64,000 bases of DNA. Source: Prolixibacteraceae bacterium. GTDB lineage: Bacteria; Bacteroidota; Bacteroidia; Bacteroidales; Prolixibacteraceae. Under the pieces are notes generated by a model that did no database searches, was not told the DNA's origin, and saw only the letters and a program-made list of their open reading frames with translations. Location: NCBI GenBank assembly GCA_037140615.1, contig JBAXED010000004.1, forward strand, positions 8,485 to 72,484, read 5' to 3'. Shown piece by piece: positions 6,036 through 26,470 of the stretch. Each line of letters begins with the position of its first letter. Position 1 is the stretch's first letter. The position numbers were made by a program, and so were the translations under genes.

Positions 6036-6079
6036 GAATACATAACTGTATGCTTTAGATTTAACTTATTTATCGATAT

Positions 6080-6158
6080 ATTAATTGGAATCGTTACAAA
6101 TGTTACTTAATGTTTAATTTGTATTTAGAATAAATTAATGTATTAACATAATTATATA
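6080..6158 (+). promoter_or_regulatory. conserved AT-rich upstream element, copy A (core ATTAATTGGAATCGTTACAAAT)
   Basis: About 75% identical over ~80 bp to 10908-10990, with a 21/22 core match. It lies ~280 nt upstream of the 61-heme gene start. Confidence 0.45.
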
Positions 6159-6360
6159 CGTAAATGTTAAATTCATAAATACTTAATATTTAATGCATTA
6201 ATTGACTTTTGTAATTTTCCATTAAGGGCTTTAATGCAAAATATAATGAATTAGCTCTTCCTAAATCGTAAAATCAAATAATTGAAATAAACAAAGTATT
6301 TAGTAAAGCGTTACATTGGACGGTGGTATTAATGAATTTATAGTCTTTTAAAGACATATT

Positions 6361-9300
6361 ATGCGCTACTTGTCCCTTACAATAGTCGTCTTAATAATGG
6401 CTCTAATTGTTCATGGACAGACTTCCCCGCACGGGAAATCTTTCCAGATCGATTGTGCACAATGCCATACTTCCACCAACTGGAAGGTAAATCCCACAGC
6501 AATTCAGTTCAACCACGACATTACCAATTTTAAGCTGGTTGGTCAGCATTTGATTGTCAATTGCAAGGATTGTCATCTTGTGCTCACTTTCAAGGATGGG
6601 CGAAGCAATTGTCTTGATTGTCATGCAGATGCACACAACCAGTCGTTGGGTAAAGATTGCGGGAAATGTCATACGCCGAAATCCTGGATCATCAGTGATG
6701 TTACTGCCATGCATCAAAAAACAAGATTTCCGCTATTGGGTGCACATAGAACTGTCACTTGTAGTGAATGCCATAAGTCTGCTTCAAAATATCAATATGA
6801 GCCTCTTGGAATAGAATGTGTCAACTGTCATAACACAGATTTTCAGAAAACAACAACCCCAAATCACGTAACGAATAAATATTCAACATTTTGTCTGGAG
6901 TGCCACAACGAAAATTCAAATAGCTGGCGCACAACTCTAACAAGCCATGAATCGTTCCCTCTAACAGGTGGTCACAAGGTTGGATGCGGCTTATGCCATA
7001 CAACAGGTCATTACGCCAAAATTCCTACTGATTGTAATAATTGTCACAATAAACAGTATATAGCATCACAAATACCTAAGCATCAATCTGCAGGTATCCC
7101 GGTAAAATGCGAAACCTGCCATAATACCTCCACTTGGAAGCCTTCCAGCTTTAATCACCTTGCAACTGGTTTTGAATTAAAAGGATCACATAAAAATGTA
7201 GTACAATGTTCTGATTGCCATAAAGGAAATTTGACAAGTGCAAAACAAACTTGCATCAGTTGCCATCAGGTTCAATATGATAAAGCTCCCAACCATAAAA
7301 CTGTAAATTATCCACTAGATTGTACTCAATGCCATACACAAATTAATTGGGTAGATAATACCTTTAACCATTCTGCAACAAATTATCCACTTACAGGTGC
7401 TCATCAAAAAGTTAAATGCGGTGATTGCCATTTGACTACCTTGAAAGGAACACCTACTGTCTGTGGCAGTTGTCACCTTGCAACCTATAATAACTCCCAG
7501 GTACCCGCTCATGCGTCTGCAGGAATTCCAAAAGAATGCGCCACTTGCCACACAACAGCTGCATGGAAACCTTCCGGTTTTAACCATACAACAACAGGTT
7601 ATGAGTTGAAAGGTGCGCACAAATTACTGGTGCAGTGTTCATTGTGTCACAAGGGAAATGTTACTTCAGCACCACAAACCTGTGTCGGATGTCATCAGGC
7701 CAAATACGAAGTTGCTCCTAATCACAAAACTCTGGGCTATCCAACAGATTGTATTATGTGCCATACTCAGAACAATTGGTTGGAAAATAGCTTTAACCAT
7801 GCCACAACTGCCTTCCCATTAACAGGATCTCATGCATCAGTTCAATGTTCAAAATGTCATGTTGTAAGTTTTAAAGGAACATCTGCTATTTGTAGCAGTT
7901 GCCATTTGCCGGCGTATATCAGTTCAAAGTTACCTGACCATGTGGCAGCCGCTATACCAAAAGAATGTGCCACCTGCCATACTACAGTTTCCTGGAAACC
8001 TTCATCCTTCAATCATGCCACTACTGGCTATGAATTAAAAGGTGCACATACAAGCATTGTGCAGTGTTCACAGTGTCACAAAGGAATTGTCACTTCAGCA
8101 CCTCAGACTTGTTTAGCCTGCCACCAGACCAAGTATGATGCAGCTCCTAATCATAAAGTCAATGGTTTTCCAACTGATTGTGCCATGTGTCATACCCAGA
8201 ATAACTGGTTGGAAAATAGTTTTAACCATTCCACTACAGCCTTTCCACTGACCGGAGCACACACCAATGTTATCTGCTCAAAATGCCATACTGTTGGTTT
8301 TAAGGGGACATCCGCTGTTTGTAGTAATTGCCATATGCCAGTTTATACAAGTTCACAGATTCCTACCCATGTAGCTGCCGGTATTCCAAAGGAATGTGCA
8401 TCCTGCCATACGACAGCATCATGGAAGCCATCTGTTTTCAATCACACTACCACTGGTTATGAATTGAAAGGAGCTCATAAAAGCGTTGTTCAGTGTTCGC
8501 AATGTCACATAGGCAATGTCACTACTGCCCCTCAGGTATGTGTTGGATGCCATCAGGTTCAGTACAATGTGGCACCGGGTCATACGAAATATGGATTCTC
8601 AACTGATTGTGCCAAATGCCACACTCAAGACAACTGGTTATCAGCAATTTTTGATCATGCAGTAACTAATTTTCCGTTAACAGGTGCTCATTCAAAGGTC
8701 ATATGCGCTTCATGTCATGCCAATGGTTATACAGGAACTTCAACTGTTTGCAGCAGTTGCCATTTACCTGCTTTTAACAGTTCTCAAAATCCTGGTCACG
8801 TTGCCGCAGGCATTCCAAAGGAGTGTGCAACATGTCACACGATTGTATCCTGGAAACCATCCTCATTTAACCATACGACTACAGGATATGAACTTAAGGG
8901 GGCTCACAAGCTAATAGTTCAGTGTTCGCAATGTCACAAAGGCAATGTCACCAGCGCACCACAGGTTTGCATTGGATGCCACCAGGCGCAATACGATGTT
9001 GCACCCTCACATAAATCAAGTGGATTTTCAACAGATTGCGCCAAATGCCATTCTCAAGACAATTGGCTTTCTGCGAATTTTGACCATTCAACAACAAATT
9101 TCCCATTGACAGGAGCTCATACAAAGGTTCTTTGTGCTACCTGTCATGTAAAAGGCTATGCAGGCACTTCAACAGCTTGCAGCAGCTGTCACCTGCCGGT
9201 TTATACGAGCTCTCAACTGCCTGGTCACGTGGCTGCAGGTATACCAAAGGAGTGTGCGACCTGCCATACCACAGCAGTATGGAAACCTTCTACCTTCAAC

Positions 9301-10812
9301 CATACTACTACTGGTTATGAGCTAAAAGGCGCCCACAAACTGATTGTTCAGTGTTCAGACTGTCACAAAGGGAATGTTACAACTGCCGCCTTAACCTGCG
9401 TTGGATGCCATCAGGCCAAATATGATGCAGCATTGAATCACAAAGCACAGGGATACCCCACAGATTGCTCCATGTGCCACACCCAGAGCAACTGGTTGGA
9501 GAACAGTTTTAATCATGCCACAACGGCCTTCCCATTGACTGGGGCTCATACAACAGTTTTATGCTCAAAATGTCATATTGTTGGCTTCAAAGGGACGTCG
9601 ACAGTTTGTAGTAGCTGCCATTTGCCGGTATATACGAGCTCTCAATTGCCTGGTCACGTGGCTGCAGGTATACCAAAGGAGTGTGCGACCTGCCATACCA
9701 CAGCAGTATGGAAACCTTCTACCTTCAACCATACTACTACTGGTTATGAGCTAAAAGGCGCCCACAAACTGATTGTTCAGTGTTCAGACTGTCACAAAGG
9801 GAATGTTACAACTGCCGCCTTAACCTGCGTTGGATGCCATCAGGCCAAATATGATGCAGCATTGAATCACAAAGCACAGGGATACCCCACAGATTGCTCC
9901 ATGTGCCACACCCAGAGCAACTGGTTGGAGAACAGTTTTAATCATGCCACAACGGCCTTCCCATTGACTGGGGCTCATACAACAGTTTTATGCTCAAAAT
10001 GTCATATTGTTGGCTTCAAAGGGACGTCGACAGTTTGTAGTAGCTGCCATTTGCCGGTATATACGAGCTCTCAATTGCCTGGTCACGTGGCTGCAGGTAT
10101 ACCAAAGGAGTGTGCATCCTGCCATACCACAGCAGTATGGAAACCGTCTACATTCAATCATACAACCACAGGTTATGAACTGAAAGGTGCACATAAACTA
10201 ATAGTTCAGTGTTCACAATGCCACAAGGGAAATGTCACTTCTGCAGCTCTAACTTGCATTGGCTGTCATCAGACAAATTATGATACAGCTCTGAACCATA
10301 AAGCACAGGGATACCCCACAGATTGTGCCATGTGCCACACTCAGAACAACTGGTTGGAAAATAGTTTCAATCATGCCACAACAGCCTTCCCATTGACTGG
10401 AGCTCATACAACAGTTTTATGCTCAAAATGTCATACAACAAGTTTTAAGGGGACTTCTACGCTATGTTTCACATGTCATGCAGTGAAATACAATGCATCG
10501 ACAAATCCGAACCATCTTGGCGCTAAGTTTCCTACAAATTGCGAAATCTGTCATTCTACCAAGGCATGGACTCCTTCAACCTACAACCATGATGCTCAGT
10601 ATTTCCCAATAAACAGTGGGCGGCACAAGGGAGCATGGACGCTATGCACCGAATGTCATACGGTTCCTACTAATTATGCTACATTTAGTTGTATTGTTTG
10701 CCATACACATAGCAATAAGACAACAGTAGATGGAAATCATAAAGGCGTTAAAAATTATGCCTATACCGGTACATCCTGCTATACATGCCATCCCCGGGGA
10801 ACTACTAACTAA
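6361..10812 (+). CDS. giant multiheme c-type cytochrome, 61 CxxCH motifs, poly-c7-like modular architecture, Sec signal peptide
   Basis: I counted 61 CxxCH in 1483 aa (~24 aa per motif). Signal peptide MRYLSLTIVVLIMALIVHG. Repeated FNH / G(A/S)H / NHK histidines could serve as distal ligands. Confidence 0.9.
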   Translation: MRYLSLTIVVLIMALIVHGQTSPHGKSFQIDCAQCHTSTNWKVNPTAIQFNHDITNFKLVGQHLIVNCKDCHLVLTFKDGRSNCLDCHADAHNQSLGKDCGKCHTPKSWIISDVTAMHQKTRFPLLGAHRTVTCSECHKSASKYQYEPLGIECVNCHNTDFQKTTTPNHVTNKYSTFCLECHNENSNSWRTTLTSHESFPLTGGHKVGCGLCHTTGHYAKIPTDCNNCHNKQYIASQIPKHQSAGIPVKCETCHNTSTWKPSSFNHLATGFELKGSHKNVVQCSDCHKGNLTSAKQTCISCHQVQYDKAPNHKTVNYPLDCTQCHTQINWVDNTFNHSATNYPLTGAHQKVKCGDCHLTTLKGTPTVCGSCHLATYNNSQVPAHASAGIPKECATCHTTAAWKPSGFNHTTTGYELKGAHKLLVQCSLCHKGNVTSAPQTCVGCHQAKYEVAPNHKTLGYPTDCIMCHTQNNWLENSFNHATTAFPLTGSHASVQCSKCHVVSFKGTSAICSSCHLPAYISSKLPDHVAAAIPKECATCHTTVSWKPSSFNHATTGYELKGAHTSIVQCSQCHKGIVTSAPQTCLACHQTKYDAAPNHKVNGFPTDCAMCHTQNNWLENSFNHSTTAFPLTGAHTNVICSKCHTVGFKGTSAVCSNCHMPVYTSSQIPTHVAAGIPKECASCHTTASWKPSVFNHTTTGYELKGAHKSVVQCSQCHIGNVTTAPQVCVGCHQVQYNVAPGHTKYGFSTDCAKCHTQDNWLSAIFDHAVTNFPLTGAHSKVICASCHANGYTGTSTVCSSCHLPAFNSSQNPGHVAAGIPKECATCHTIVSWKPSSFNHTTTGYELKGAHKLIVQCSQCHKGNVTSAPQVCIGCHQAQYDVAPSHKSSGFSTDCAKCHSQDNWLSANFDHSTTNFPLTGAHTKVLCATCHVKGYAGTSTACSSCHLPVYTSSQLPGHVAAGIPKECATCHTTAVWKPSTFNHTTTGYELKGAHKLIVQCSDCHKGNVTTAALTCVGCHQAKYDAALNHKAQGYPTDCSMCHTQSNWLENSFNHATTAFPLTGAHTTVLCSKCHIVGFKGTSTVCSSCHLPVYTSSQLPGHVAAGIPKECATCHTTAVWKPSTFNHTTTGYELKGAHKLIVQCSDCHKGNVTTAALTCVGCHQAKYDAALNHKAQGYPTDCSMCHTQSNWLENSFNHATTAFPLTGAHTTVLCSKCHIVGFKGTSTVCSSCHLPVYTSSQLPGHVAAGIPKECASCHTTAVWKPSTFNHTTTGYELKGAHKLIVQCSQCHKGNVTSAALTCIGCHQTNYDTALNHKAQGYPTDCAMCHTQNNWLENSFNHATTAFPLTGAHTTVLCSKCHTTSFKGTSTLCFTCHAVKYNASTNPNHLGAKFPTNCEICHSTKAWTPSTYNHDAQYFPINSGRHKGAWTLCTECHTVPTNYATFSCIVCHTHSNKTTVDGNHKGVKNYAYTGTSCYTCHPRGTTN
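7537..10479 (+). repeat. in-frame tandem array of a 429-bp (143-aa, six-CxxCH) module, ~6.9 copies
   Basis: The periodic protein pattern CATCH..FNH..GAH..CSxCH..CxGCH..NHK..CxMCH..FNH..GAH..CSKCH..CSSCH recurs every 143 aa. Confidence 0.85.
9218..10115 (+). repeat. perfect 429-bp-period tandem duplication (2.09 copies) inside the cytochrome gene
   Basis: 9218-9686 is identical to 9647-10115 at lag 429 in line-by-line comparison. The flanking mismatches are at 9217/9646 and 9687/10116. Confidence 0.9.
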
Positions 10813-10870
10813 ATTAGAAAAGGGCAAATTTTCAATCTGAAATTTTCTAGTAAAAATTTGAGTTGCGTAG

Positions 10871-10888
10871 ATCAAAAAGCTTTTTGAT
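10871..10888. other. 18-nt perfect palindrome ATCAAAAAGCTTTTTGAT (weak terminator or binding site)
   Basis: Self-complementary sequence 59 nt downstream of the 61-heme gene stop. It is AT-rich, so its terminator strength is doubtful. Confidence 0.3.
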
Positions 10889-10907
10889 AGTCTGATTTCG
10901 TTGAAAA

Positions 10908-10990
10908 ATTAATTGGAATCATTACAAATATAAATAATGAGATAATTTATATTTAAAATAAATTGGTTAAAATGCATTTAATTATATCTA
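10908..10990 (+). promoter_or_regulatory. conserved AT-rich upstream element, copy B (core ATTAATTGGAATCATTACAAAT)
   Basis: Paralogous to 6080-6158. It lies ~296 nt upstream of the 11205 ORF start. Confidence 0.45.
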
Positions 10991-11204
10991 GATGGATAGT
11001 GATTATCTATAATAAAATCAGATACATAGCAATATTATTTATTTGACCGTATATAAAAAAGATTTTAAAAATTTAAAAATTTTGATTTTTCAAATTAAAT
11101 CAAAAAGTAACCCAGCAACCCGATTAGTTTAAAAAATTTCCTTCATGTGCTTCATAATGTTAGTTTTACACTTGATTCTTAACATGTGATTTGGAACATA
11201 AGAG

Positions 11205-12155
11205 TTGAACAAAAGTGTTGTGTTAAAAAAAAAGAATAACTTCACTTTACAAGTTACAGGTAGAAAGAATGTTAACAATCCCTTATTTGTTGCCATGAAA
11301 TTAAAAGATTCTACGATACATCAGATTGTCATTTCAGCATTAGTTGCCATAGTTGCCGGCATAGTTATAGTATTGTTATACATTGGCTATAGCTATTATT
11401 CAATTCCTATCGAAGAGAGACACTTTCATCCACTAAATCAATCATTTAAAGCTAGCGGTATTGTTGGACATGGCTTAGGCATTGTTGGTTCTGTCCTGAT
11501 CTTGGTCGGTGTATTCACCTATATTATCAGAAAGCGATTTCATCAATTTTCACGGATAGGCATTTTGAAGCATTGGCTGGAGTTCCATATATTCCTCTGC
11601 ACGCTAGGGCCATTCTTGATTCTATTTCATACCACTTTTAAATTTGGAGGAATTGTTGCAGTAAGTTTCTGGAGTATGGTGGTTGTTTTTCTTAGTGGAA
11701 TTATAGGAAGATATATTTATCTCCAAATTCCAAGATCAATTGAAGGGCAAGAACTCACACTTCTTGAACTTGAAGATCAGAAGATTGAAATGAACAAACA
11801 ATTAAGGCAGTCTGTTACATTGGACGAAAGTATTTATGAGCTTATAAATGTAACACCCAATAAATCAAAAGGCAATAGTAATTTTTTTGGAAGAAGTAAA
11901 GAGGAGCGAATGGCCTTTGGACAATTGAGAAGGGATTTGAAAATCCAAAAGCTTCCCACCAAAAAGGCAAGGGAAATAATTAGAATTTTTAAAAGTCAGT
12001 TGAGGCTTAAAAAGCGAATTGAGCGTTTGGTAACCATGCAAAAGCTTTTTTCCTACTGGCATGTGGCTCATTTACCATTTGCTTTAATCATGCTGGTGGT
12101 TATGATTATTCATGTTGTAGTCGCAGTTACTTTTGGTTATAAATGGATTTTTTAA
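11205..12155 (+). CDS. integral membrane protein, 5 predicted TM helices, two His-x13-His helices (candidate di-heme cytochrome b-like conduit)
   Basis: The ORF track start is TTG 11205; an alternative ATG is at 11295. H128/H142 lie in TM3 and H289/H303 in TM5. K/R-rich loops at 108-122 and 174-282 predict that both helices run cytoplasm to periplasm. Confidence 0.7.
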   Translation: MNKSVVLKKKNNFTLQVTGRKNVNNPLFVAMKLKDSTIHQIVISALVAIVAGIVIVLLYIGYSYYSIPIEERHFHPLNQSFKASGIVGHGLGIVGSVLILVGVFTYIIRKRFHQFSRIGILKHWLEFHIFLCTLGPFLILFHTTFKFGGIVAVSFWSMVVVFLSGIIGRYIYLQIPRSIEGQELTLLELEDQKIEMNKQLRQSVTLDESIYELINVTPNKSKGNSNFFGRSKEERMAFGQLRRDLKIQKLPTKKAREIIRIFKSQLRLKKRIERLVTMQKLFSYWHVAHLPFALIMLVVMIIHVVVAVTFGYKWIF

Positions 12156-13495
12156 TTATGGAAGTACTAATAGAAAATTTGGTCATTTATTCTCTGGTTG
12201 CAATATTTATTGTAGCTATTATTATGATTTATATTCTCAAGGGAAAGAGGGAATCACGCGTTGTGGAAGCCAAAATTGCCATTGCAATTGAGGAGGGAAT
12301 ACATGAACCGGTCACATTGCATCCTGTGATTGATGTAAACAGCTGCATCAAAAGTGGAGCCTGCATTACCGCATGTCACGAAAAGGATATAATTGGGATA
12401 AAAGATGGAAAGGCGACTATTATCAATGCTTCTCATTGCATTGGACATGGAGCTTGCTTTCATGCTTGTCCGGTTCAGGCTATCTCACTTTTTATTGGTA
12501 CTGAAAAGAGAGGCGTTGAATTGCCACACGTCGATCAAACATTTGAATCAAATGTTCCTGGAGTATATATTGCCGGGGAGATGGGAGGAATGGGTCTAAT
12601 AAGGAATTCAGTAGAACAGGGCAAGCAGGCAGTTGAGAACCTGATGAAAAAAATTGATAAAACAGTTGATGCTCAATATGATTTGCTAATTGTTGGTGGT
12701 GGGCCTGCCGGTGTATCTGCCTCCCTTGCGGCAAAGAAAAATAAGCTCAACGCATTGACTCTTGAGCAGAATAGCCTGGGTGGAACAGTCTTTACTTTTC
12801 CACGAGCGAAAATTGTCATGACATCAGCCATGGATTTACCCCTGCATGGTAAAGTTAAATTTAGTGAAACCAGTAAATCAGAGCTTCTGAATCTTTGGAC
12901 AACAGTGTTGACGAATAATGATATCGATCTTCGTGAGAACGCTAAAGTTGAGTCTATTACCCCAATTGATAATTATTTTTTGACAAAAACGCTGGATGGT
13001 CAGGAGTTTACCTCTCGCAAAATTTTGCTTGCCATTGGAAGAAGAGGTTCTCCCCGCAAGTTGAATGTTAAAGGAGAAGAGAGTATGAAAGTGGCTTATC
13101 GGCTGCTGGAACCGGAACTTATAATAGGGAAAAGAGTTTTGGTTGTTGGAGGAGGAGATTCAGCGATCGAATCTGCCTTGCTTCTAACTGACGAAAATGA
13201 AGTAACGCTTTCTTACAGAAGCGATGCATTTGGACGAATTAAGCCAAAAAACAATGAAAAGATCAGAGAAGCGATTGCAAATAAAACTGTAAATATGCTC
13301 TTTAATTCAAATGTGACATCCATTGAGGACCATCAGGTTAAATTATTTTTGTCGGATATTAAGGAAGAGGTTGTTCTCGAAAATGACCTTGTTTACATTT
13401 TTGCCGGAGGAGAACTGCCAACTCAGTTTCTAGAGAAAATAGGCATTAAAATCACCAAAAAATTTGGAGAAGCAATTCTTAAGCACGAAAAGTAG
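12143..13495 (+). CDS. membrane-anchored ferredoxin-like domain + FAD/NAD(P)-binding pyridine-nucleotide-disulfide-oxidoreductase-family protein
   Basis: N-terminal TM helix. Two Cys clusters CIKSGACITAC and CIGHGACFHACP. Dinucleotide motifs LLIVGGGPAGVSA and VLVVGGGDSAIE. The start overlaps the previous stop (or uses ATG 12158, 3 nt after it). Confidence 0.8.
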   Translation: MDFLIMEVLIENLVIYSLVAIFIVAIIMIYILKGKRESRVVEAKIAIAIEEGIHEPVTLHPVIDVNSCIKSGACITACHEKDIIGIKDGKATIINASHCIGHGACFHACPVQAISLFIGTEKRGVELPHVDQTFESNVPGVYIAGEMGGMGLIRNSVEQGKQAVENLMKKIDKTVDAQYDLLIVGGGPAGVSASLAAKKNKLNALTLEQNSLGGTVFTFPRAKIVMTSAMDLPLHGKVKFSETSKSELLNLWTTVLTNNDIDLRENAKVESITPIDNYFLTKTLDGQEFTSRKILLAIGRRGSPRKLNVKGEESMKVAYRLLEPELIIGKRVLVVGGGDSAIESALLLTDENEVTLSYRSDAFGRIKPKNNEKIREAIANKTVNMLFNSNVTSIEDHQVKLFLSDIKEEVVLENDLVYIFAGGELPTQFLEKIGIKITKKFGEAILKHEK

Positions 13496-13500
13496 TTTTA

Positions 13501-15123
13501 TTGGAAATTGATTTTAATAAAGCGGAAATGAGATTTGTATTTAGAATAGTATTTATTATTTGCATCCTGTCAATTTCTTTGCCTGGGAAATCTCAAATTT
13601 CGCCTGGAGAACTTTCAAAAGTTCACGCTCACCTGGAAGGAATGTCTAATTGCACCCAATGTCATACTTTGGGAGCGAAAGTATCAAACGAAAAATGTTT
13701 GGACTGCCACAAGGAGGTCAAGAAACGACTGAATGAAACCAGGGGTTATCATGCTTCATCAAAGGTCAAAAGCAAAGAATGTATTATTTGCCATAGTGAG
13801 CATTATGGTCGGAATTATGACATTGTCCACTTGATTAAGGATAAGTTTGACCATAATGAAACCGGGTATAAGCTGGAAGGAAAGCATGCAAAGAAAGAGT
13901 GCGCTGATTGTCACAAGATTGCAAATATCTCTGATCCTCAATTAAAGAACAAACATGAGACTTTTCTGGGATTGAGCGAGTCATGCCTTCCTTGTCATGA
14001 AGATTTTCACCAGAAGACCCTGCCAGTAAACTGCTTAAATTGTCACAATTACGATGCTTTTAAACCTGCCACTAAATTTGATCATGCTAAAACAAAATAT
14101 CAATTAAAAGGCAAGCATATTGATGTAGCTTGTGAAAAATGCCACCCGAAAAGTTCCCGGAATGGAAAAAATTTCCAGCAATTTTCAGGGTTGCAATTTC
14201 AAAATTGTGTAGCTTGTCATAAGGATCCCCACGAAAATAAATTTGGTCAGAATTGCATGCAATGTCATGTGGAGGAGTCGTTTAAGTCTGTAAAAAGCAT
14301 AGGGCAGTTTGATCATAGCAAGACTGGATTTGAATTGATTGGTAAGCACATTCAGGTGGCCTGTAAGACATGCCACAAAACCAATCTTACGGCTGCGATT
14401 AAACATGAGAAATGCACAGATTGCCACAAGGACTATCATAAGAATCAATTTAGCAAGGCCGGTAAATCGCCGGATTGTTCTGAATGTCATGATGTAACTG
14501 GGTTTGTTCAGTTTTCTTATTCGGTTGAGAAGCATAATCTTTCTAAATTTAAGCTCGAAGGAGCACACCTTGCTATTCCTTGCCTCGACTGCCATAAGAA
14601 AGAGAAAGAGTGGAATTTCAAAAATATTGGAGAAAGATGCGTGGATTGTCACAAGGACATTCACAAAGACCTGATTGATACAAAATATTATCCAGTTCAA
14701 AAATGTGAAAATTGCCATCAAGTGTTGGCTTGGAATGAAATTAAGTTTGACCACAAACTAACATCTTTTGACCTTCAAGGTAAACATGCGGCCACTTCTT
14801 GCAGGAAATGCCATTTTGATGAAAAAATCAACAAGGGAATGAGTCAAAAATTTAAAGGCTTTGATGGGAATTGCGAAAGTTGTCATACGGATGTGCATCG
14901 CGCTCAATTTAGCAAGAACAACGAGATTGTTTGTTTGAAGTGTCATGGTTTTAACAACTGGAAGCCAGAAAAATTCAACCACAATACAACCAGGTTTAAA
15001 TTGGATGGAGGTCATAAAGATGTAGCTTGTGCCAAATGCCACAAACTGCTGACAGAAGGGAATAATACGTACATTAATTACAAATTTAAAGACATATTAT
15101 GCGCTACTTGTCACTTACAATAG
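13501..15123 (+). CDS. multiheme c-type cytochrome, 20 CxxCH motifs; likely start ATG 13528
   Basis: I counted 20 CxxCH. The signal peptide MRFVFRIVFIICILSISLPGKSQ begins at 13528. Repeated FDH..T..L.GKH....CxxCH....CxxCH.D.H modules. Confidence 0.9.
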   Translation: MEIDFNKAEMRFVFRIVFIICILSISLPGKSQISPGELSKVHAHLEGMSNCTQCHTLGAKVSNEKCLDCHKEVKKRLNETRGYHASSKVKSKECIICHSEHYGRNYDIVHLIKDKFDHNETGYKLEGKHAKKECADCHKIANISDPQLKNKHETFLGLSESCLPCHEDFHQKTLPVNCLNCHNYDAFKPATKFDHAKTKYQLKGKHIDVACEKCHPKSSRNGKNFQQFSGLQFQNCVACHKDPHENKFGQNCMQCHVEESFKSVKSIGQFDHSKTGFELIGKHIQVACKTCHKTNLTAAIKHEKCTDCHKDYHKNQFSKAGKSPDCSECHDVTGFVQFSYSVEKHNLSKFKLEGAHLAIPCLDCHKKEKEWNFKNIGERCVDCHKDIHKDLIDTKYYPVQKCENCHQVLAWNEIKFDHKLTSFDLQGKHAATSCRKCHFDEKINKGMSQKFKGFDGNCESCHTDVHRAQFSKNNEIVCLKCHGFNNWKPEKFNHNTTRFKLDGGHKDVACAKCHKLLTEGNNTYINYKFKDILCATCHLQ

Positions 15124-18100
15124 TCGTCGTGTTGATGGCTTTAAATGTTTTGGGACAGACTTCCCCGCATGGGAAGGCATTCCAGATCGATTGTGCACAA
15201 TGCCATACTTCCACCAACTGGAAGGTAAATCCTACGGCAATTCAGTTCAACCATGACAATACCAATTTCAAGTTGGTTGGTCAGCATTTGGTTGTCAATT
15301 GCAAGGATTGTCACTTGTCCCTTACCTTCAAGGATGGGAGAAGAAACTGTATTGATTGTCATACAGATGCCCACAACCAGTCATTGGGTAAAGATTGCGA
15401 AAAGTGTCATATGCCGAAATCCTGGATCATCAGTGATGTAACAGCCATGCATCAAAAAAACAGATTTCCACTTTTAGGTGCACATAGGACAGTAAATTGC
15501 AGTTCATGCCATAAGTCGGCGTCACAATTTCTATTTGAGCCTCTTGGAATAGAATGTGTCAACTGTCATAACACAGATTTTCTGAAAACAACAACCCCAA
15601 ATCACGTAACGAATAAATATTCAACATTTTGTCTGGAGTGCCACAACGAAAATTCAAATAGCTGGCGCACAACTCTAACAAGCCATGAATCGTTCCCTCT
15701 AACAGGTGGTCACAACGTTGGATGCGGCTTATGCCATACGACAGGTCACTACACCAAAATCCCTACTGATTGTAATAATTGTCACAATAAGCAATATATA
15801 GCATCACAAATACCCAAGCATCAGGCTGCGGGTATACCTGTTAAATGTGAAACCTGCCATAATACTTCTAGCTGGAAACCATCCAGTTTCAACCATCTTT
15901 CGACTGGTTTCGAATTAAAAGGATCACATAAAAATGTTGTACAGTGTTCTGACTGCCACAAGGGTAATTTGACAAGTGCAAAGCAAACCTGCCTAAGCTG
16001 TCATCAGGTTCAATATGACAAAGCTCCCAACCACAAAGCAGTAAACTATCCGGTTGACTGTACTCAATGTCATTCCCAAATTAATTGGATAGATAATACT
16101 TTTAACCATTCTGCTACAAGCTATCCACTAACAGGAGCTCATAAAGTAGTGAAATGCGGTGATTGCCATTTGACCGCATTGAAAGGAACGCCTACAGTTT
16201 GTAGTGGCTGCCACCTTTCCACTTATACCAACTCACAGGTGCCAGCTCATGCTTCTGCAGGAATTTCCAAGGATTGTGCAACCTGTCACACCACAGTAGC
16301 ATGGAAACCTTCCGGTTTTAACCATACAACCACAGGTTATGAATTGAAAGGTGCGCACAAATTACTGGTGCAGTGTTCATTGTGTCACAAGGGAAATGTT
16401 ACTTCAGCACCACAAACCTGTGTCGGATGTCATCAGGCTAAATATGATGTAGCCCCTAACCACAAAGCTCAGGGCTATCCAACAGATTGTATCATGTGTC
16501 ATACACAGAACAATTGGCTGGAAAATAGCTTTAACCATGCCACAACAGCCTTTCCCTTAACCGGATCTCATATTTCAGTTGATTGTTCGAAATGTCATAC
16601 TGTTGGTTTTAAAGGAACACCAGTGGTTTGCAGCAGCTGCCATTTGCCGGCATATACCAGTTCCATGTTACCTGACCACGTGGCGGCCGGAATACCCAAA
16701 GAGTGTGCAACTTGTCATACAACGGTTTCCTGGAAACCTGCATCTTTTAATCATACCACAACAGGCTATGAGCTGAAAGGGGCGCATAAAAGCGTCGTTC
16801 AGTGTTCAGTGTGCCACAAAGGAAACCTGACTTCAACACCTCAGACTTGTATATCATGTCATCAGGCACAGTACGATGTTGCGCCTGCGCATAAGAAAAG
16901 CGGATTTTCAACTGATTGTGCCACATGCCATACACAAGACAACTGGTTATCCACTACTTTTGATCACTCAACTACAACTTTTCCTTTGACTGGAGCTCAT
17001 ACCAAGGTTGTTTGTTCTTTATGCCATGCCAATGGATATGCAGGAACTTCAACAGTATGCAGTAGCTGCCATTTACCTGTATATACCAGTTCTCAAACGC
17101 CTGGTCACGTTGCAGCAGGTGTCCCAAAAGAGTGTGCTACCTGCCATACCACAATTTCCTGGAAACCATCTTCGTTTAACCACTCAACCACCGGTTATGA
17201 GTTAAAAGGGGCTCATAAACTAATTATTCAGTGTTCACTTTGTCATTTAGGAAATGTAACATCCGCTCCACAGGTATGTATTGGATGCCATCAGGCACAA
17301 TACGATGTTGCACCATCACACAAAGCAAGCGGATTTTCAACAGATTGCACCAAATGCCATTCACAGGACAATTGGCTTTCCGCCAATTTTGACCATTCAA
17401 CAACTACATTTCCTCTTACCGGAGCTCATGCCAAGGTTCTCTGTACTACTTGCCATATCAATGGTTATGCCGGTACTTCAACCGCATGCAGTAGTTGCCA
17501 TTTGCCGGTTTATACGAGTTCTCAATTGCCAGGTCACGTTGCTGCGGGGATACCAAAGGAGTGCGCAACCTGCCACACCACCGTCGTATGGAAACCTTCT
17601 ACTTTCAACCATACCGCCACAGGATTTGAACTCAAAGGAGCGCATAAGCTTATAGTTCAATGTTCAGATTGTCATAAAGGAAATCTCACCTCCGCATCTT
17701 TGAGCTGTATTGGATGCCATCAGGCTAAATATGATGCAGCACCAAATCATAAAGCACAGGGATATCCAACAGACTGTACAATCTGCCACACCATGAACAA
17801 CTGGCTGGAGAACAGCTTCAATCATGCAACAACAGCCTTCCCATTGACTGGAGCTCATACCACTGTTTTATGTTCCAAATGTCATACCGTTGGTTTCAAA
17901 GGCACTCCGACAGCATGCAATAGTTGCCATTTACCGGTTTATACGAGTTCGCAATTACCTGGCCACGCTGCCGCTGGAATACCTACTGATTGTGCAACCT
18001 GTCATACAACAGCTGTATGGAAACCATCTACATTCAACCATACTACCACCGGATACCAACTACTAGGTGCGCATAAGCTTTTAGTCCAATGTTCAGATTG

Positions 18101-18689
18101 CCACAAAGGAAATGTCAAAACTGCGGCCTTAACATGTGTAGGTTGCCACCAGGCTAAATATGATGCAGCCCTTAACCATAAGGCACAGGGATATCCTACA
18201 GATTGTGCAATGTGCCACACTCAGAACAACTGGTTAGAGAATAGCTTCAATCATGCCACAACTGCCTTCCCATTGACTGGAGCTCATACTACTGTTTTAT
18301 GCTCTAAATGTCATGCCACAACTTTTAAGGGTACTTCGACATTGTGTTTCACTTGTCATGCAACCAAATACAATGCATCCACAAATCCGAACCATCTAGC
18401 CGCTAAATTCCCTACTAATTGCGAAATTTGTCATACTACCAAGGCATGGACTCCTTCAACATACAACCATGATGCTCAGTATTTCCCAATTAGTAGTGGA
18501 CGGCACAAAGGGGTATGGACGCTTTGTACCGAATGTCATACAGTTGCTACTAATTATGCCACTTTTAGTTGTATCGTTTGTCATACGCATAGCAATAAGG
18601 CTAGCATAGACAGCAGTCACAAAGGCATAAAAAATTATACATATACCGGTACATCTTGTTACACATGCCATCCCCGGGGAAATACTTAA
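15099..18689 (+). CDS. giant multiheme c-type cytochrome, 49 CxxCH motifs, paralog of 6361-10812
   Basis: I counted 49 CxxCH in 1196 aa. The signal peptide and N- and C-terminal caps match the 61-heme paralog. Its start overlaps the upstream gene by 25 nt. Confidence 0.9.
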   Translation: MRYLSLTIVVVLMALNVLGQTSPHGKAFQIDCAQCHTSTNWKVNPTAIQFNHDNTNFKLVGQHLVVNCKDCHLSLTFKDGRRNCIDCHTDAHNQSLGKDCEKCHMPKSWIISDVTAMHQKNRFPLLGAHRTVNCSSCHKSASQFLFEPLGIECVNCHNTDFLKTTTPNHVTNKYSTFCLECHNENSNSWRTTLTSHESFPLTGGHNVGCGLCHTTGHYTKIPTDCNNCHNKQYIASQIPKHQAAGIPVKCETCHNTSSWKPSSFNHLSTGFELKGSHKNVVQCSDCHKGNLTSAKQTCLSCHQVQYDKAPNHKAVNYPVDCTQCHSQINWIDNTFNHSATSYPLTGAHKVVKCGDCHLTALKGTPTVCSGCHLSTYTNSQVPAHASAGISKDCATCHTTVAWKPSGFNHTTTGYELKGAHKLLVQCSLCHKGNVTSAPQTCVGCHQAKYDVAPNHKAQGYPTDCIMCHTQNNWLENSFNHATTAFPLTGSHISVDCSKCHTVGFKGTPVVCSSCHLPAYTSSMLPDHVAAGIPKECATCHTTVSWKPASFNHTTTGYELKGAHKSVVQCSVCHKGNLTSTPQTCISCHQAQYDVAPAHKKSGFSTDCATCHTQDNWLSTTFDHSTTTFPLTGAHTKVVCSLCHANGYAGTSTVCSSCHLPVYTSSQTPGHVAAGVPKECATCHTTISWKPSSFNHSTTGYELKGAHKLIIQCSLCHLGNVTSAPQVCIGCHQAQYDVAPSHKASGFSTDCTKCHSQDNWLSANFDHSTTTFPLTGAHAKVLCTTCHINGYAGTSTACSSCHLPVYTSSQLPGHVAAGIPKECATCHTTVVWKPSTFNHTATGFELKGAHKLIVQCSDCHKGNLTSASLSCIGCHQAKYDAAPNHKAQGYPTDCTICHTMNNWLENSFNHATTAFPLTGAHTTVLCSKCHTVGFKGTPTACNSCHLPVYTSSQLPGHAAAGIPTDCATCHTTAVWKPSTFNHTTTGYQLLGAHKLLVQCSDCHKGNVKTAALTCVGCHQAKYDAALNHKAQGYPTDCAMCHTQNNWLENSFNHATTAFPLTGAHTTVLCSKCHATTFKGTSTLCFTCHATKYNASTNPNHLAAKFPTNCEICHTTKAWTPSTYNHDAQYFPISSGRHKGVWTLCTECHTVATNYATFSCIVCHTHSNKASIDSSHKGIKNYTYTGTSCYTCHPRGNT
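16275..18359 (+). repeat. in-frame tandem array of the 429-bp six-CxxCH module, ~4.9 copies
   Basis: Same 143-aa periodicity as in 7537-10479, with exactly two fewer modules. Confidence 0.85.
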
Positions 18690-18789
18690 TCTTATAATTT
18701 TGAAATGGTTGATTTAGAATGATTTTTGTTTTATTGAGACAAGAAAAAGATGGCAGATTCTGAATTAATGGTATCTGGAATGTTAAAAA

Positions 18790-18797
18790 TAATTTTG
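18790..18797 (+). promoter_or_regulatory. candidate Bacteroidota -7 box TAATTTTG
   Basis: Perfect TAnnTTTG 21 nt upstream of ATG 18818. No clear -33 TTTG was seen. Confidence 0.35.
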
Positions 18798-18817
18798 TAA
18801 ACGTATTAATTTGATTG

Positions 18818-20425: not shown

Positions 20426-20452
20426 TTTTTTCATCTCAATTTATATTCTACA

Positions 20453-20505: not shown

Positions 20506-20518
20506 TTAAAAAAACTTC

Positions 20519-23908: not shown

Positions 23909-23926
23909 AATTACTTTATTTGTCGA

Positions 23927-26465: not shown

Positions 26466-26470
26466 AATTA

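What the first reader, a model, noticed from the sequence alone, without database searches (positions are those of the whole stretch)
6361..10812. 61-CxxCH, 1483-aa single-polypeptide poly-c7-like cytochrome
By hand I count 61 CxxCH motifs, about 24 aa per motif. The N-terminal region holds 15 motifs. It is followed by ~6.9 copies of a 143-aa unit, then a 5-motif C-terminal cap. Each 143-aa unit is two ~71-aa halves of the form CxxCH-x12-FNH-x8-G(A/S)H-x5-7-CxxCH-x10-CxxCH-x8-(N/G)H. Each half therefore has 3 heme motifs plus 3 extra conserved His, enough for bis-His ligation of every heme. Three hemes in ~71 aa is the size of Geobacter triheme cytochrome c7 (PpcA). Polymerised c7-type domains are known from the 12-heme GSU1996, which I recall being described as a ~12-nm nanowire-like protein. 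Scaling by ~0.8-1 nm per heme gives roughly 50-60 nm, longer than a typical periplasm. The protein has a Sec signal peptide. I recognise no lipobox and no T9SS C-terminal domain, so its final location is open.
Basis: partly seen in the sequence, partly recalled or inferred. Interest (0 to 1): 0.8.

Follow-up and report, generated by a model that had tools for sequence, protein, structure and literature searches.

The report
61-heme cytochrome of PCC3-type conduit
The gene really does encode a protein with 61 heme-attachment sites, but it is one mid-sized member of a widespread, already noticed and still untested family of very long "wire" cytochromes that sit in a conserved five-gene envelope-spanning electron-transfer operon.

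Summary
ORF 6361..10812(+) encodes 1483 aa with exactly 61 CxxCH. All 122 Cys lie in these motifs, and there are 64 further His.

The anatomy is better described as follows:
- a Sec signal peptide;
- a 9-heme N-terminal core;
- 16 triheme modules of about 71 aa, arranged as 8 units of 143 aa;
- a 4-heme C-terminal cap.

It is neither a record nor an orphan. About 1,900 relatives carry up to 103 motifs, and the literature reports 85–116.

The gene is a lineage-specific extra paralog of the variable-length cytochrome of a conserved operon that lies just downstream in the window. That operon encodes:
- a ~290-aa inner-membrane protein with two W-x3-H-x13-H motifs (putative di-heme b);
- a membrane-anchored 2x[4Fe-4S]/FAD flavoprotein;
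- a 20-heme cytochrome;
- a 49-heme paralog;
- a 22-strand outer-membrane barrel.

This matches the "PCC3" porin-cytochrome cluster predicted by He et al. 2017, which was described only in Proteobacteria.

Across 80 Bacteroidota genomes the variable cytochrome ranges from 13 to 105 hemes. Heme counts follow 3k+1.

The most likely function is long-range electron conduction or storage at or beyond the outer membrane. Location and direction of flow are inferred, not shown. The finding is a new member of a known kind.

The parts
6081..6101 (+). Conserved upstream element TTAATTGGAATCGTTACAAAT, the start of a ~55-nt block shared with the operon's upstream region. It lies ~280 nt upstream of the ATG of the 61-heme gene.
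   Evidence: Only two matches in the window (this one and 10909-10929), with 0 expected in shuffles. Alignment of the two intergenic regions shows the shared block. The same element lies ~365-410 nt upstream of the membrane-protein gene in L005, L006, L008 and L010, and ~295 nt upstream in L007.
6361..10812 (+). Gene A: 1483-aa, 61-CxxCH multiheme cytochrome c, the subject of the finding. It is an extra paralog of the operon's variable-length cytochrome.
   Evidence: NCBI MEI7828367.1 is called 12 aa shorter, which removes the start of the signal peptide.
6361..6417 (+). Signal peptide (aa 1-19), with predicted cleavage VHG|QTSPHG.
   Evidence: Read directly from the sequence. The motif (signal)-Q-(S/T/N)-PHG is conserved in about 120 homologues. 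A Gln at +1 fits the Bacteroidota 'Q-rule' (my own knowledge).
6418..7086 (+). N-terminal 9-heme core (aa 20-242).
   Evidence: Heme spacing is the same as in the 13-heme minimal homologue. Weak hits to the DmsE/MtrA decaheme model (36.6 bits against a cutoff of 192). Profile hits to HmcA 1Z1N and GSU1996 3OV0.
7087..10518 (+). Eight 143-aa units, equal to 16 triheme modules (48 hemes). Each unit has 6 CxxCH plus 6 invariant distal His.
9218..10115 (+). 898 nt made of 2.09 exactly identical copies of the 429-nt unit (units 6 and 7). Copy number here is uncertain in a short-read assembly.
   Evidence: Exact run of 469 nt at offset 429. A contig breaks here in another assembly (P0007).
10519..10809 (+). 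C-terminal 4-heme cap (aa 1387-1483), ending ...CYTCHPRGTTN.
   Evidence: Conserved in the family. Falls within the weak, summed Pfam MtrC/MtrF domain II/IV match, best stretch aa 1298-1480 (64.9 bits summed, no single stretch passing). Profile hit to MtrF 3PMQ, E 1.2e-5.
10909..10929 (+). Second copy of the upstream element, in front of the core operon.
11295..12155 (+). Inner-membrane protein (286 aa) with 5 hydrophobic (predicted TM) segments. It has W-x3-H-x13-H in the third and in the last of them and SGxxG in the fourth, and is a putative di-heme b transmembrane electron carrier (the PCC3 'IMP').
   Evidence: No Pfam match. H99/H113 and H260/H274 are invariant in 114 sequences. The motifs match He et al. 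2017. The family has more than 7,300 members.
12143..13495 (+). Membrane-anchored flavoprotein (450 aa): an N-terminal TM helix, two Fe-S cluster motifs (one is C-x2-H-x2-C-x3-CP) and a TrxR/YpdA-like FAD and NAD(P)-binding domain. It overlaps the previous gene by 13 nt.
   Evidence: Pfam and NCBIfam. Alignment across three phylum-level lineages (Bacteroidota, Ignavibacteria, Acidobacteriota).
13528..15123 (+). 20-heme cytochrome (531 aa). It corresponds to the PCC3 'periplasmic MHC'.
   Evidence: It has 20 or 23 hemes in nearly all of the 80 loci where the gene is complete.
15099..18689 (+). Gene B: 1196-aa, 49-heme paralog of A. It has two fewer 143-aa units and is ~89% identical to A in the N- and C-terminal parts. 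It is the syntenic copy inside the operon.
18818..20425 (+). Outer-membrane protein (535 aa): signal peptide, small N-terminal beta domain, disordered linker and a ~22-strand beta-barrel, ending in ...KRF.
   Evidence: AF2 pLDDT 83.5. Foldseek finds only OM barrels; the best TM-scores, 0.43-0.47, are to the PapC/FimD usher pores, and TonB-dependent receptors are also hit. The family has 1,041 members, none with a Pfam match.

Best explanation
Gene A encodes a Sec-exported c-type cytochrome in which every heme is predicted to be bis-His ligated. It is a recently duplicated extra copy of the variable-length subunit of a PCC3-type porin-cytochrome system in a Prolixibacteraceae (Bacteroidota) genome.

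The polypeptide is a 9-heme core, 16 inserted triheme c7-like modules and a 4-heme cap. By analogy with solved class III multiheme proteins it is expected to hold one continuous chain of closely packed hemes tens of nanometres long.

It most likely works together with the operon next to it. The proposed route is: cytoplasmic NAD(P)H, then FAD and two Fe-S clusters of the membrane-anchored flavoprotein, then the two b hemes of the 5-TM membrane protein, then the 20-heme periplasm-spanning cytochrome, then the long cytochrome (B and/or A) associated with the 22-strand outer-membrane barrel, and finally an extracellular acceptor such as a mineral, humic matter or another cell. The many hemes would also buffer charge.

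Shown here:
- the heme-motif and His anatomy;
- the modular 3k+1 architecture;
- the conserved five-gene synteny;
- the barrel fold;
- the His motifs of the membrane protein.

Inferred:
- heme loading;
- a linear shape;
- which cytochrome sits in the barrel;
- an extracellular location;
- the electron donor;
- the direction of electron flow.
For: Anatomy:
- 61 CxxCH, 64 extra His and 9 Met.
- 6 invariant extra His per 6-heme unit.
- Pfam Cytochrome_C7, Cytochrom_c3_2 and Cytochrom_CIII are all well above their cutoffs.

Family:
- 1,923 relatives at E<=1e-10. The best 120 have conserved N- and C-termini and up to 103 motifs.
- 92 of 103 complete members have 3k+1 motifs.
- A 13-heme member equals the N-core plus the cap.

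Synteny:
- The order membrane protein, flavoprotein, 20/23-heme MHC, variable MHC (13 to 105 hemes), barrel is seen in Saprospiraceae and Ignavibacteriaceae, and Acidobacteriota carry the same five genes in a different order. It is seen in essentially every one of 80 Bacteroidota loci long enough to show it, in the JGI ortholog, and on plasmid pEMTOL02 of the cultured Emticicia oligotrophica, where it is preceded by a fused CcsBA heme lyase.

Barrel:
- AF2 pLDDT 83.5 with ~22 strands; Foldseek hits only OM barrels.

Membrane protein:
- Two invariant H-x13-H pairs and SGxxG, identical to the PCC3 inner-membrane-protein signature (PMC5566968).
- A remote homologue on a Methylophaga plasmid lies between an unrelated FAD/NAD/2Fe-2S reductase and a 7-heme cytochrome, which is the same logic with different parts.

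Literature:
- PCC3 large MHCs are T/S/A/G-rich and repetitive, with a low ratio of amino acids to hemes, and are proposed to act as wires. Their AF2 models 'appear long and mostly linear' (PMC9900912).

Co-regulation:
- A and the operon share a unique upstream element.
Against: - There is no expression, heme-loading or localisation evidence for any member of this family.
- The AF2 model of the repeat region was poor (pLDDT 57), and Foldseek found nothing with it. The linear shape and the ~50-60 nm length are therefore extrapolations.
- A has no lipobox, no T9SS domain and no known secretion signal beyond Sec, so an extracellular location rests only on the adjacent barrel and on analogy.
- A lies outside the operon and there is only one barrel gene, so A may not use that barrel.
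- He et al. proposed that the membrane protein exchanges electrons with quinones, not with a flavoprotein.
- I did not test sequence homology to the type PCC3 proteins of Sideroxydans or Leptothrix.
- The exact repeat copy number, and so the figure of 61, is not fully secure in this assembly.
Confidence: 0.6

Rival explanations
1. Periplasmic electron store (capacitor). The long cytochromes stay in the periplasm, lying along the membrane or folded back. They buffer electrons when acceptors fluctuate. Only the shorter 20-heme protein, or the N-core, engages the barrel.
For: A carries only a Sec signal and no surface-sorting signal. Capacitor roles were proposed for these giants in PMC11495043, PMC7399161 and PMC9900912. 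An extra paralog outside the operon, as A is, simply adds capacity.
Against: Length varies from 13 to 105 hemes at one conserved operon position, immediately upstream of a dedicated barrel. That is easier to explain as reach than as storage. A 50-100 nm rod fits poorly in a periplasm that is about 20-30 nm wide (general knowledge). The two roles are not mutually exclusive.
Confidence: 0.2
2. Same machinery, opposite direction. It is an electron-uptake conduit, for example for oxidation of Fe(II), minerals or a cathode, as PCC3 was first proposed to be in iron oxidisers. The membrane protein would hand electrons to the quinone pool rather than receive them from NAD(P)H.
For: PCC3 was discovered in Fe(II)-oxidising Proteobacteria and modelled as feeding quinones (PMC5566968). 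Bis-His heme chains are reversible.
Against: The hosts here are Bacteroidota, Ignavibacteria and Acidobacteriota, which are mostly organoheterotrophs by general knowledge. A cytoplasmic-facing FAD/NAD(P)/Fe-S protein is translationally coupled to the membrane protein across three phylum-level lineages (Bacteroidota, Ignavibacteria, Acidobacteriota). An unrelated NAD-binding reductase takes its place in Methylophaga. Reducing NAD(P)+ from Fe(II) would be strongly uphill.
Confidence: 0.15
3. The 61-heme array is an assembly artefact, produced by mis-joined or inflated tandem repeats, or the gene is a pseudogene.
For: 898 nt of exactly repeated sequence. Another assembly breaks at that point. In a related assembly B is 767 aa, which is exactly three units shorter.
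Against: - The frame is intact over 4.45 kb, and every Cys is in a motif.
- An independent ortholog has the same 61 motifs with distinguishable copies.
- Relatives with 64-105 motifs occur in megabase-scale or complete-chromosome MAG assemblies that are most likely long-read (L058, L065, L074 and the OY-accession chromosomes).
- At most, the count could be off by multiples of 6.
Confidence: 0.03
4. It is a catalytic multiheme enzyme, or a non-heme Cys/His-rich metal-binding repeat protein.
For: None specific. Cys/His-rich repeats can bind metals.
Against: - There are strict CxxCH motifs with one conserved distal His per heme.
- There is no CxxCK motif and no motif lacking a partner His, because 64 extra His cover 61 hemes.
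- There are strong hits to cytochrome families.
- A heme lyase gene heads the operon in Emticicia.
- No non-heme domain is present.
Confidence: 0.02

Closest known systems
PCC3 porin-cytochrome gene cluster (He, Barco, Emerson & Roden 2017, Front Microbiol, PMC5566968). [quoted passage not shown]
   Same: - The parts list is the same: a predicted OM barrel; a large, repetitive, T/S/A/G-rich cytochrome with ~24 aa per heme and a variable motif number; a ~21-heme cytochrome; and a ~300-aa membrane protein with 5 TM helices, two W-x3-H-x13-H motifs (TM3, TM5) and SGxxG (TM4).
- The proposed role is the same: an envelope-spanning wire or capacitor.
- The status is the same: bioinformatic only.
   Different: - PCC3 was described in Alpha-, Beta- and Gammaproteobacteria. 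Here it is in Bacteroidota, and also in Ignavibacteria and Acidobacteriota.
- Here a membrane-anchored 2x[4Fe-4S]/FAD/NAD(P) flavoprotein is always adjacent to the membrane protein (and overlaps its gene in this window). He et al. do not list it for PCC3, and it points to an NAD(P)H rather than a quinone link.
- PCC3 porins were predicted with up to 42 TM segments; this barrel has ~22 strands in the AF2 model.
- This genome has a second, longer paralog (A) outside the operon.
- Sequence homology to the type PCC3 proteins was not tested.
'Undescribed' Bacteroidota (Saprospiraceae) cytochromes with very high numbers of heme motifs, up to and over 100, in activated sludge (mSystems 2024, PMC11495043).
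   Same: They belong to the same protein family. Saprospiraceae and Lewinellaceae proteins of 2,000-2,300 aa with 79-91 motifs are among the best hits, at 35-39% identity over 96-98% of A. L065 (Ca. Opimibacter skivensis, a sludge MAG) has 105 motifs in the same operon.
   Different: That paper only counted motifs and speculated on EET or a capacitor role. It did not report an operon context or a link to PCC3. The window's protein is a shorter, Prolixibacteraceae member.
GSU1996 dodecaheme 'nanowire' cytochrome of Geobacter sulfurreducens (PDB 3OV0) and the triheme cytochrome c7, PpcA.
   Same: - It is a tandem array of ~70-aa triheme modules in one polypeptide.
- The order of the three CxxCH motifs is the same, and one distal His lies just before the second motif.
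- Pfam PF14522 matches.
- The N-core profile finds 3OV0 (E 1.8e-4) and its fragments.
   Different: - The curated TIGR04257 model is not reached (22.3 bits against 40).
- The repeat-unit profile finds no c7 or GSU1996 structure.
- An 8-residue insertion carries an extra F-N-H ligand, and only one His lies upstream of the first motif, where c7 has two.
- All hemes appear to be bis-His, whereas GSU1996 has one His-Met heme per domain (my own knowledge).
- It has 61 hemes rather than 12.
- GSU1996 is periplasmic and has no dedicated barrel operon.
MtrCAB / MtoAB porin-cytochrome complexes (Shewanella, Sideroxydans).
   Same: - The variable cytochrome gene lies immediately upstream of the barrel gene, as mtrA lies upstream of mtrB.
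- The minimal family member (13 hemes, ~340 aa) is the size of MtrA.
- There are weak matches of the N-core to the DmsE/MtrA model and of the C-terminus to the MtrC/MtrF pentaheme domain and to MtrF 3PMQ.
   Different: - All family cutoffs are missed or met only by summed weak hits.
- The PDB profile searches returned no MtrA structure.
- The barrel has ~22 strands rather than 26, and the 50 best Foldseek hits listed include no MtrB.
- There is no lipoprotein MtrC analogue and no type II secretion link.
- The inner-membrane entry is not CymA-like.
HmcA, the 16-heme high-molecular-weight cytochrome of Desulfovibrio (PDB 1Z1N).
   Same: It is the best solved-structure match by profile (E 1.9e-7 for the C-terminal profile and 3e-6 for the N-core). 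It is a poly-domain class III (c3/c7-like) cytochrome.
   Different: HmcA is compact and periplasmic, and is part of a transmembrane Hmc complex for sulfate respiration. It has no tandem expansion and no barrel partner.

Membership tests
PCC3 porin-cytochrome cluster (He et al. 2017) | An outer-membrane beta-barrel gene in the cluster, next to a cytochrome gene. | tested here: met
   18818..20425 lies directly downstream of B. AF2 gives pLDDT 83.5 and ~22 strands. Foldseek finds only OM barrels. The position is conserved in the 80 loci.
PCC3 porin-cytochrome cluster (He et al. 2017) | A large 'extracellular' MHC with many hemes, a low ratio of amino acids to hemes, T/S/A/G-rich composition and internal repeats. 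| tested here: met
   A has 61 hemes at 24.3 aa per heme, with T 12.5%, S 8.3%, A 8.2% and G 6.3%, and a 143-aa repeat in 8 copies. B has 49 hemes. The extracellular location itself was not tested.
PCC3 porin-cytochrome cluster (He et al. 2017) | A second ('periplasmic') MHC with about 21 hemes. | tested here: met
   13528..15123 has 20 CxxCH. It has 20 or 23 in related loci.
PCC3 porin-cytochrome cluster (He et al. 2017) | A ~300-aa inner-membrane protein with 5 TM helices, W-x3-H-x13-H on TM3 and TM5, and SGxxG on TM4. | tested here: met
   11295..12155 (286 aa) has WLEFH-x13-H, SGIIG and WHVAH-x13-H. The His residues are invariant in 114 sequences. A hydropathy scan resolves the hydrophobic stretches only coarsely; the 5-TM count is my reading of the sequence.
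PCC3 porin-cytochrome cluster (He et al. 2017) | Sequence homology to the type PCC3 proteins (Sideroxydans lithotrophicus ES-1, Leptothrix cholodnii SP-6). | not tested
Cytochrome c7 / GSU1996-type poly-c7 'nanowire' cytochromes | Triheme domains of ~70 aa recognised by the family models. | tested here: inconclusive
   The broad Pfam PF14522 model is met (177.8 bits, 7 stretches). The specific NCBIfam TIGR04257 nanowire_3heme model is not met (22.3 bits against a cutoff of 40).
Cytochrome c7 / GSU1996-type poly-c7 'nanowire' cytochromes | c7 axial-ligand layout (two His just upstream of the first CxxCH, one before the second). In GSU1996, one His-Met heme per domain. | tested here: not met
   The modules have one His upstream, two between motifs 1 and 2 (FNH, GAH) and no conserved Met. 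The c7 and GSU1996 layout is from my own knowledge.
MtrA/DmsE decaheme family (TIGR03508) | Score at or above the curated cutoff (192.2 bits). | tested here: not met
   A scores 36.6 bits over aa 67-215 and B scores 47.5 bits. The PDB profile searches returned no MtrA chain.
MtrC/OmcA outer-surface decaheme family | A lipoprotein signal, two pentaheme domains and two non-heme beta-barrel domains. | tested here: not met
   There is no lipobox. There is only a summed weak PF22113 match at the C-terminus, with no single stretch passing. Heme motifs occur every ~24 aa, which leaves no room for non-heme domains.
T9SS cargo / Bacteroidota surface lipoprotein | A C-terminal sorting domain of ~80-100 aa, or an N-terminal lipobox Cys. 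| tested here: not met
   The protein ends 6 aa after the last CxxCH, and the first Cys is residue 32, inside a heme motif. Nearly all of the ~120 homologues listed end within a few to ~25 residues of their last heme motif.

The most novel reading that the evidence does not exclude
The variable cytochrome is a genetically length-tunable, single-polypeptide nanowire. Its conserved MtrA-sized core would sit in the dedicated 22-strand barrel. The inserted triheme modules, from 0 to about 30 of them, would project from a few nm to roughly 100 nm outside the cell.

The whole five-gene system would be fed directly from cytoplasmic NAD(P)H, through an Fe-S flavoprotein and a NOX-like di-heme b membrane protein. 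It would bypass the quinone pool and all known inner-membrane EET entry points (CymA, ImcH, CbcL).

Carrying two paralogs of different length, as here (61 and 49 hemes), would then give one cell two 'reaches'.
Probability: 0.25. Interest if true: 0.8.

Novelty: new member of a known kind. Interest (0 to 1): 0.42.

Why it matters
Taken alone, the 61-heme protein is one more member of a family already flagged in surveys, so the specific finding is not a discovery.

Its value lies in what the locus ties together:
- The 'undescribed' Bacteroidota cytochromes with very high heme-motif counts (up to and over 100) reported from wastewater belong to the PCC3-type operon predicted in iron oxidisers in 2017.
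- That operon extends well beyond Proteobacteria. At least 561 genome stretches in the species-representative collection carry the flavoprotein marker.
- The long subunit grows and shrinks in triheme steps, from a 13-heme core to more than 100 hemes.
- The inner-membrane entry looks like a split NOX-type NAD(P)H-to-heme-b module rather than a quinol dehydrogenase.

None of this has been tested at the bench. The complete module sits on a plasmid of a cultured strain, Emticicia oligotrophica DSM 17448, and at least its barrel gene is present in Prolixibacteraceae bacterium Z1-6. The questions of how long a single-chain heme wire can be, where it sits and what feeds it can therefore be tested directly.

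Tried and rejected
1. AF2 of the C-terminal 383 aa of A (2 units plus the cap), with a 27-sequence alignment of homologue fragments. It gave pLDDT 57 and pTM 0.31. Foldseek against the PDB then found nothing. No structural conclusion was drawn about rod shape or length.
2. Direct sequence search of A against the PDB gave no hit. The repeat-unit profile gave only non-significant hits. Only the broader family profiles reached HmcA, MtrF and GSU1996, and weakly.
3. Pfam at E<=10 for the membrane protein and the barrel gave nothing usable. Their nature had to come from motif conservation and from AF2.
4. Rfam and promoter/terminator scans of 5900-11400 gave no RNA family, and promoter and terminator counts were at shuffle level.
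5. No cytochrome c maturation genes were found among the 30 window ORFs scanned with Pfam. One is present only in the Emticicia version.
6. I considered that A might be the largest known multiheme protein. This is rejected (literature).
7. I considered a T9SS or lipoprotein surface route. This is rejected from the termini.
8. Literature searches for Prolixibacteraceae, or for a named Bacteroidota EET system with this operon, found nothing specific.
9. I did not use the representative-library HMMER job or the metagenome scan, because the family size and the synteny were already clear.

Full report
**1. The observation**

The ORF at 6361..10812(+) is open for 1483 codons.
- A regex finds 61 CxxCH and none of the variant motifs.
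- All 122 Cys are in the motifs.
- There are 125 His, so 64 are available as distal ligands, and only 9 Met.
- With the protein's own composition, chance would give fewer than one motif.

Tandem Repeats Finder reports a 429-nt period, 6.8 copies, at 7517..10435. Cutting the protein every 143 aa from residue 243 gives eight units. Seven are 62-100% identical to each other, and the first is a diverged copy at 58-62%. Aligning 13 units from this gene and its paralog shows 6 CxxCH plus 6 invariant extra His per unit.

The N-terminus is a plausible signal peptidase I substrate (…IVHG|QTSPHG). No Cys precedes the first heme motif. The protein stops six residues after the last motif.

One caveat applies. 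Units 6 and 7 are identical at the DNA level, with 898 nt of exact tandem repeat at 9218..10115. A different assembly of what appears to be the same or a near-identical genome breaks a contig there (P0007). However, an independent ortholog (P0004, 1482 aa, 89% identical, from a JGI metagenome) has the same 61 motifs, with those two units 97% identical and so distinguishable.

**2. Source and family**

The sequence is in NCBI as a 'hypothetical protein' of a Prolixibacteraceae MAG. MEI7828367.1 is called 12 aa short, which clips the signal peptide.

A search of 5.8 billion proteins gives 1,923 relatives at E<=1e-10. The best 120 hits include Saprospiraceae, Lewinellaceae, Ignavibacteriaceae, Calditrichota, Acidobacteriota and Eisenbacteria. 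Nearly all are unnamed. They carry up to 103 CxxCH (median 73 across all sequences held at that point), at a constant ~25 aa per heme.

They share:
- an N-terminus (signal peptide, then Q-[STN]-PHG…C..CH);
- a C-terminus (…GY.Y.S..C..CHP.G);
- in nearly all of them, no extra C-terminal domain.

Ninety-two of 103 complete members have 3k+1 motifs. The smallest relatives (13 hemes, ~341 aa) have the same heme spacing as the first nine or ten hemes of A, plus its last three or four. A is therefore a 9-heme core, 16 inserted triheme modules and a 4-heme cap. The unit of evolutionary growth is the triheme module.

**3. Context**

Directly downstream on the same strand, often with overlapping stops and starts, lie:
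- a 286-aa membrane protein with no Pfam match (11295..12155);
- a 450-aa protein with an N-terminal TM helix, two Fe-S motifs and a TrxR/YpdA-like FAD and NAD(P) domain (12143..13495);
- a 20-heme cytochrome (13528..15123);
- a 1196-aa, 49-heme paralog of A (15099..18689), ~89% identical in the N- and C-terminal regions and two units shorter;
- a 535-aa protein with no Pfam match (18818..20425).

This five-gene set recurs widely:
- It is present in Saprospiraceae and Ignavibacteriaceae in this order, and in Acidobacteriota in a rearranged order.
- A scan of one genome per species with the flavoprotein as marker found at least 561 positive stretches. In the best 80 loci (all Bacteroidota) the order is invariant wherever the contig is long enough.
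- The fourth gene ranges from 13 hemes (341 aa) to 105 hemes (2639 aa, Ca. Opimibacter skivensis).
- Several large arrays sit in complete-chromosome or megabase-scale contigs (L058, L065, L074, OY-series). These are most likely long-read assemblies, which is my inference from the record names and sizes. Long arrays are therefore not a short-read artefact in general.

Gene A itself is an extra copy. It is absent upstream of the operon in the closest other genera (L005, L006, L008, L010) and present in the 89%-identical JGI relative.

A and the operon each carry a copy of an element found nowhere else in the window, TTAATTGGAATC[GA]TTACAAAT plus a ~30-nt continuation. The same element is conserved upstream of the operon in close relatives. 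This suggests that A was duplicated together with the operon's control region and is co-regulated with it.

**4. The partners**

The last gene.
- Modelled with 62 homologues (pLDDT 83.5), it has a signal peptide, a small beta domain, a disordered linker and a barrel of about 22 strands.
- Foldseek returns only outer-membrane barrels. The best TM-scores (0.43-0.47) are to the 24-strand PapC/FimD usher pores, and TonB-dependent receptors are also hit.
- Barrels of that size pass folded pilus subunits (general knowledge). A ~2.5-nm heme rod inside such a barrel is therefore physically plausible, but it is not shown.

The membrane protein.
- It has five hydrophobic segments.
- In 114 aligned sequences it has invariant H99-x13-H113 and H260-x13-H274, each preceded by W-x3, and SGxxG in the fourth segment.
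- With positive-inside topology, the four His pair up as one heme near each face of the membrane. This is my own reading of the sequence.

The flavoprotein.
- Its TM helix is followed by KGKRESR, so its cofactor domains face the cytoplasm.
- One Fe-S motif is C-x2-H-x2-C-x3-CP in all four lineages compared.

Supporting associations.
- On a Methylophaga plasmid, a remote homologue of the membrane protein with the same motifs lies between an unrelated FAD/NAD/2Fe-2S reductase and a 7-heme cytochrome.
- The association of a cytoplasmic NAD(P)H flavoprotein, this membrane protein and a periplasmic multiheme cytochrome therefore arises with different parts. This supports a NOX-like transmembrane electron path.
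- On plasmid pEMTOL02 of the cultured Emticicia oligotrophica DSM 17448, the whole module (23- and 40-heme cytochromes) is headed by a fused CcsBA heme lyase and followed by a GW-domain lipoprotein.

**5. Comparison with what is known**

He et al. 2017 (PMC5566968) defined 'PCC3' in Fe(II)-oxidising and other Proteobacteria as four parts:
- a porin;
- an 'extracellular' MHC (median 34 hemes; 63 in Amphritea, 85 in Agromonas) that is T/S/A/G-rich and repetitive;
- a 'periplasmic' MHC (median 21 hemes);
- a ~300-aa inner-membrane protein with five TM helices, SGxxG on TM4 and W-x3-H-x13-H on TM3 and TM5. They compared this protein with the ferric-reductase and NOX domain and proposed that it talks to quinones.

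Every one of these defining features is met here. Other papers add to the picture:
- Hoover et al. (PMC9900912) modelled PCC3 cytochromes as 'long and mostly linear' and discussed both reach and capacitance.
- Arbour et al. (PMC7399161) saw 24- and 49-heme cytochromes before a porin, with variable motif number.
- The mSystems 2024 survey (PMC11495043) flagged 'undescribed' Saprospiraceae cytochromes with very high heme-motif counts, and a 112-motif Acidobacteriota protein.
- A 2026 preprint reports up to 116 motifs.

The finding is thus a new member of a known, computationally predicted and experimentally untouched kind.

- the link between the Bacteroidota giants and PCC3;
- the constant flavoprotein partner;
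- the 13-heme core and the 3k+1 growth rule;
- the ~22-strand barrel model;
- a cultured plasmid-borne example.

**6. The 'poly-c7' idea**

In favour:
- The broad Pfam c7 family matches strongly.
- A profile of the N-core finds GSU1996 (3OV0, E 1.8e-4) and its fragments, but HmcA (1Z1N) scores better.
- The C-terminal profile finds HmcA (1.9e-7) and MtrF (1.2e-5).

Against:
- The specific 'nanowire_3heme' model is missed.
- The repeat-unit profile finds no solved relative.
- The ligand layout differs from c7.

'Built from c7-like triheme modules' is fair. 'Member of the GSU1996 family' is not established.

**7. Mechanism and confidence**

I consider it about 85% likely that A is a genuine heme-loaded electron-transfer protein that belongs functionally to the PCC3-type system.

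I put about 60% on the fuller statement, in which A serves long-range conduction or charge buffering at or beyond the outer membrane and the chain is fed from the cytoplasm through the flavoprotein and the di-heme b protein.

The following remain inferences:
- the location (outside, or periplasmic capacitor);
- the direction of electron flow;
- the donor (NAD(P)H or quinol);
- which cytochrome occupies the barrel;
- the physical length. AF2 of the repeat region failed.

The 50-60 nm figure follows from ~0.8-1 nm per heme in GSU1996, MtrA and OmcS (my own knowledge). It is plausible but untested.

**8. Verdict**

The protein is not exceptional within its family and is already covered in kind by PCC3. 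Interest is moderate: the family is large, environmentally widespread and entirely uncharacterised, and this locus, together with the Emticicia plasmid, gives a clear route to test it.

Noticed in passing
window 15099-18689 (+): A second giant cytochrome: 1196 aa and 49 CxxCH, a paralog of the finding (~89% identical in the N- and C-terminal parts, two 143-aa units fewer). In a closely related assembly this gene is 767 aa, exactly three units shorter. That indicates either rapid copy-number change or assembly collapse.
   Followed up: yes
window 11295-12155 (+): A membrane protein with no Pfam match, with two invariant W-x3-H-x13-H motifs and SGxxG (putative di-heme b). The wider family has more than 7,300 clusters, far more than the giant cytochromes, so it also works in other contexts.
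   Followed up: partly
window 12143-13495 (+): The flavoprotein has non-canonical Fe-S motifs. One is C-x2-S-x2-C-x3-C (Cys in Acidobacteriota). The other is C-x2-H-x2-C-x3-CP, with His replacing the second Cys in all four lineages compared. This suggests a His-ligated cluster at an inter-protein electron exit.
   Followed up: partly
window 6081-6135 and 10909-10963 (+): A ~55-nt block is shared by the upstream regions of gene A and of the operon. Its core, TTAATTGGAATC[GA]TTACAAAT, occurs nowhere else in the window and is conserved ~295-410 nt upstream of the operon in five related genomes. It is a candidate operator or promoter element, and the regulator is unknown.
   Followed up: partly
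family-wide (proteins P0013-P0131; loci L004-L083): Heme-motif counts follow 3k+1 in 89% of complete family members (13, 16, 19, 22 ... 100, 103). The companion cytochrome has 20 or 23. Both proteins grow in triheme steps.
   Followed up: yes
L084 (Emticicia oligotrophica DSM 17448 plasmid pEMTOL02, NC_018749.1 78197-90781): The complete module sits on a plasmid of a cultured strain. It is headed by a fused 1028-aa ResB-CcsA heme lyase and followed by a GW-domain lipoprotein. A GW-domain gene also follows the barrel in Saprospiraceae L001. The module may be mobile and may bring its own maturation enzyme.
   Followed up: partly
L085 (Methylophaga pinxianii plasmid pWTT2411, 9992-13346 of the locus): A small three-gene set: an FNR-like FAD/NAD/2Fe-2S protein, a remote homologue of the 5-TM His-motif membrane protein and a 7-heme cytochrome. 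It lies ~3 kb upstream of a full ccm operon (ccm genes at 16577-23803 of the locus).
   Followed up: partly
window 6361 vs 6397: The NCBI annotation of gene A starts at Met13 (1471 aa), which removes the n-region and the start of the hydrophobic core of the signal peptide. The paralog B and most homologues are annotated from the MRYLSL-type start. The start of A is therefore probably mis-called in the record.
   Followed up: yes
window 20519-27124 (-): An RND efflux system (ACR_tran-type pump, from the JGI ortholog's Pfam; the adaptor, outer-membrane factor and TetR-type regulator roles of the 371-, 444- and 217-aa ORFs are my reading of their sequences, not scanned) abuts the barrel gene convergently. 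The pump gene abuts the cluster in the JGI relative too, and an unrelated RND system also flanks the cluster in the Acidobacteriota locus L003. This may be coincidence.
   Followed up: no
window 31901-33016 (+): An ApbE-family flavin transferase, which flavinylates extracytoplasmic redox proteins, lies ~11 kb from the cluster. No link to the cluster has been established.
   Followed up: no
L031, L059, L066: Other Bacteroidota genomes also carry an extra cytochrome of 13-45 heme motifs just outside the five-gene operon. I did not check that these belong to the same family. If they do, duplication of the variable subunit is recurrent and not unique to this window.
   Followed up: no
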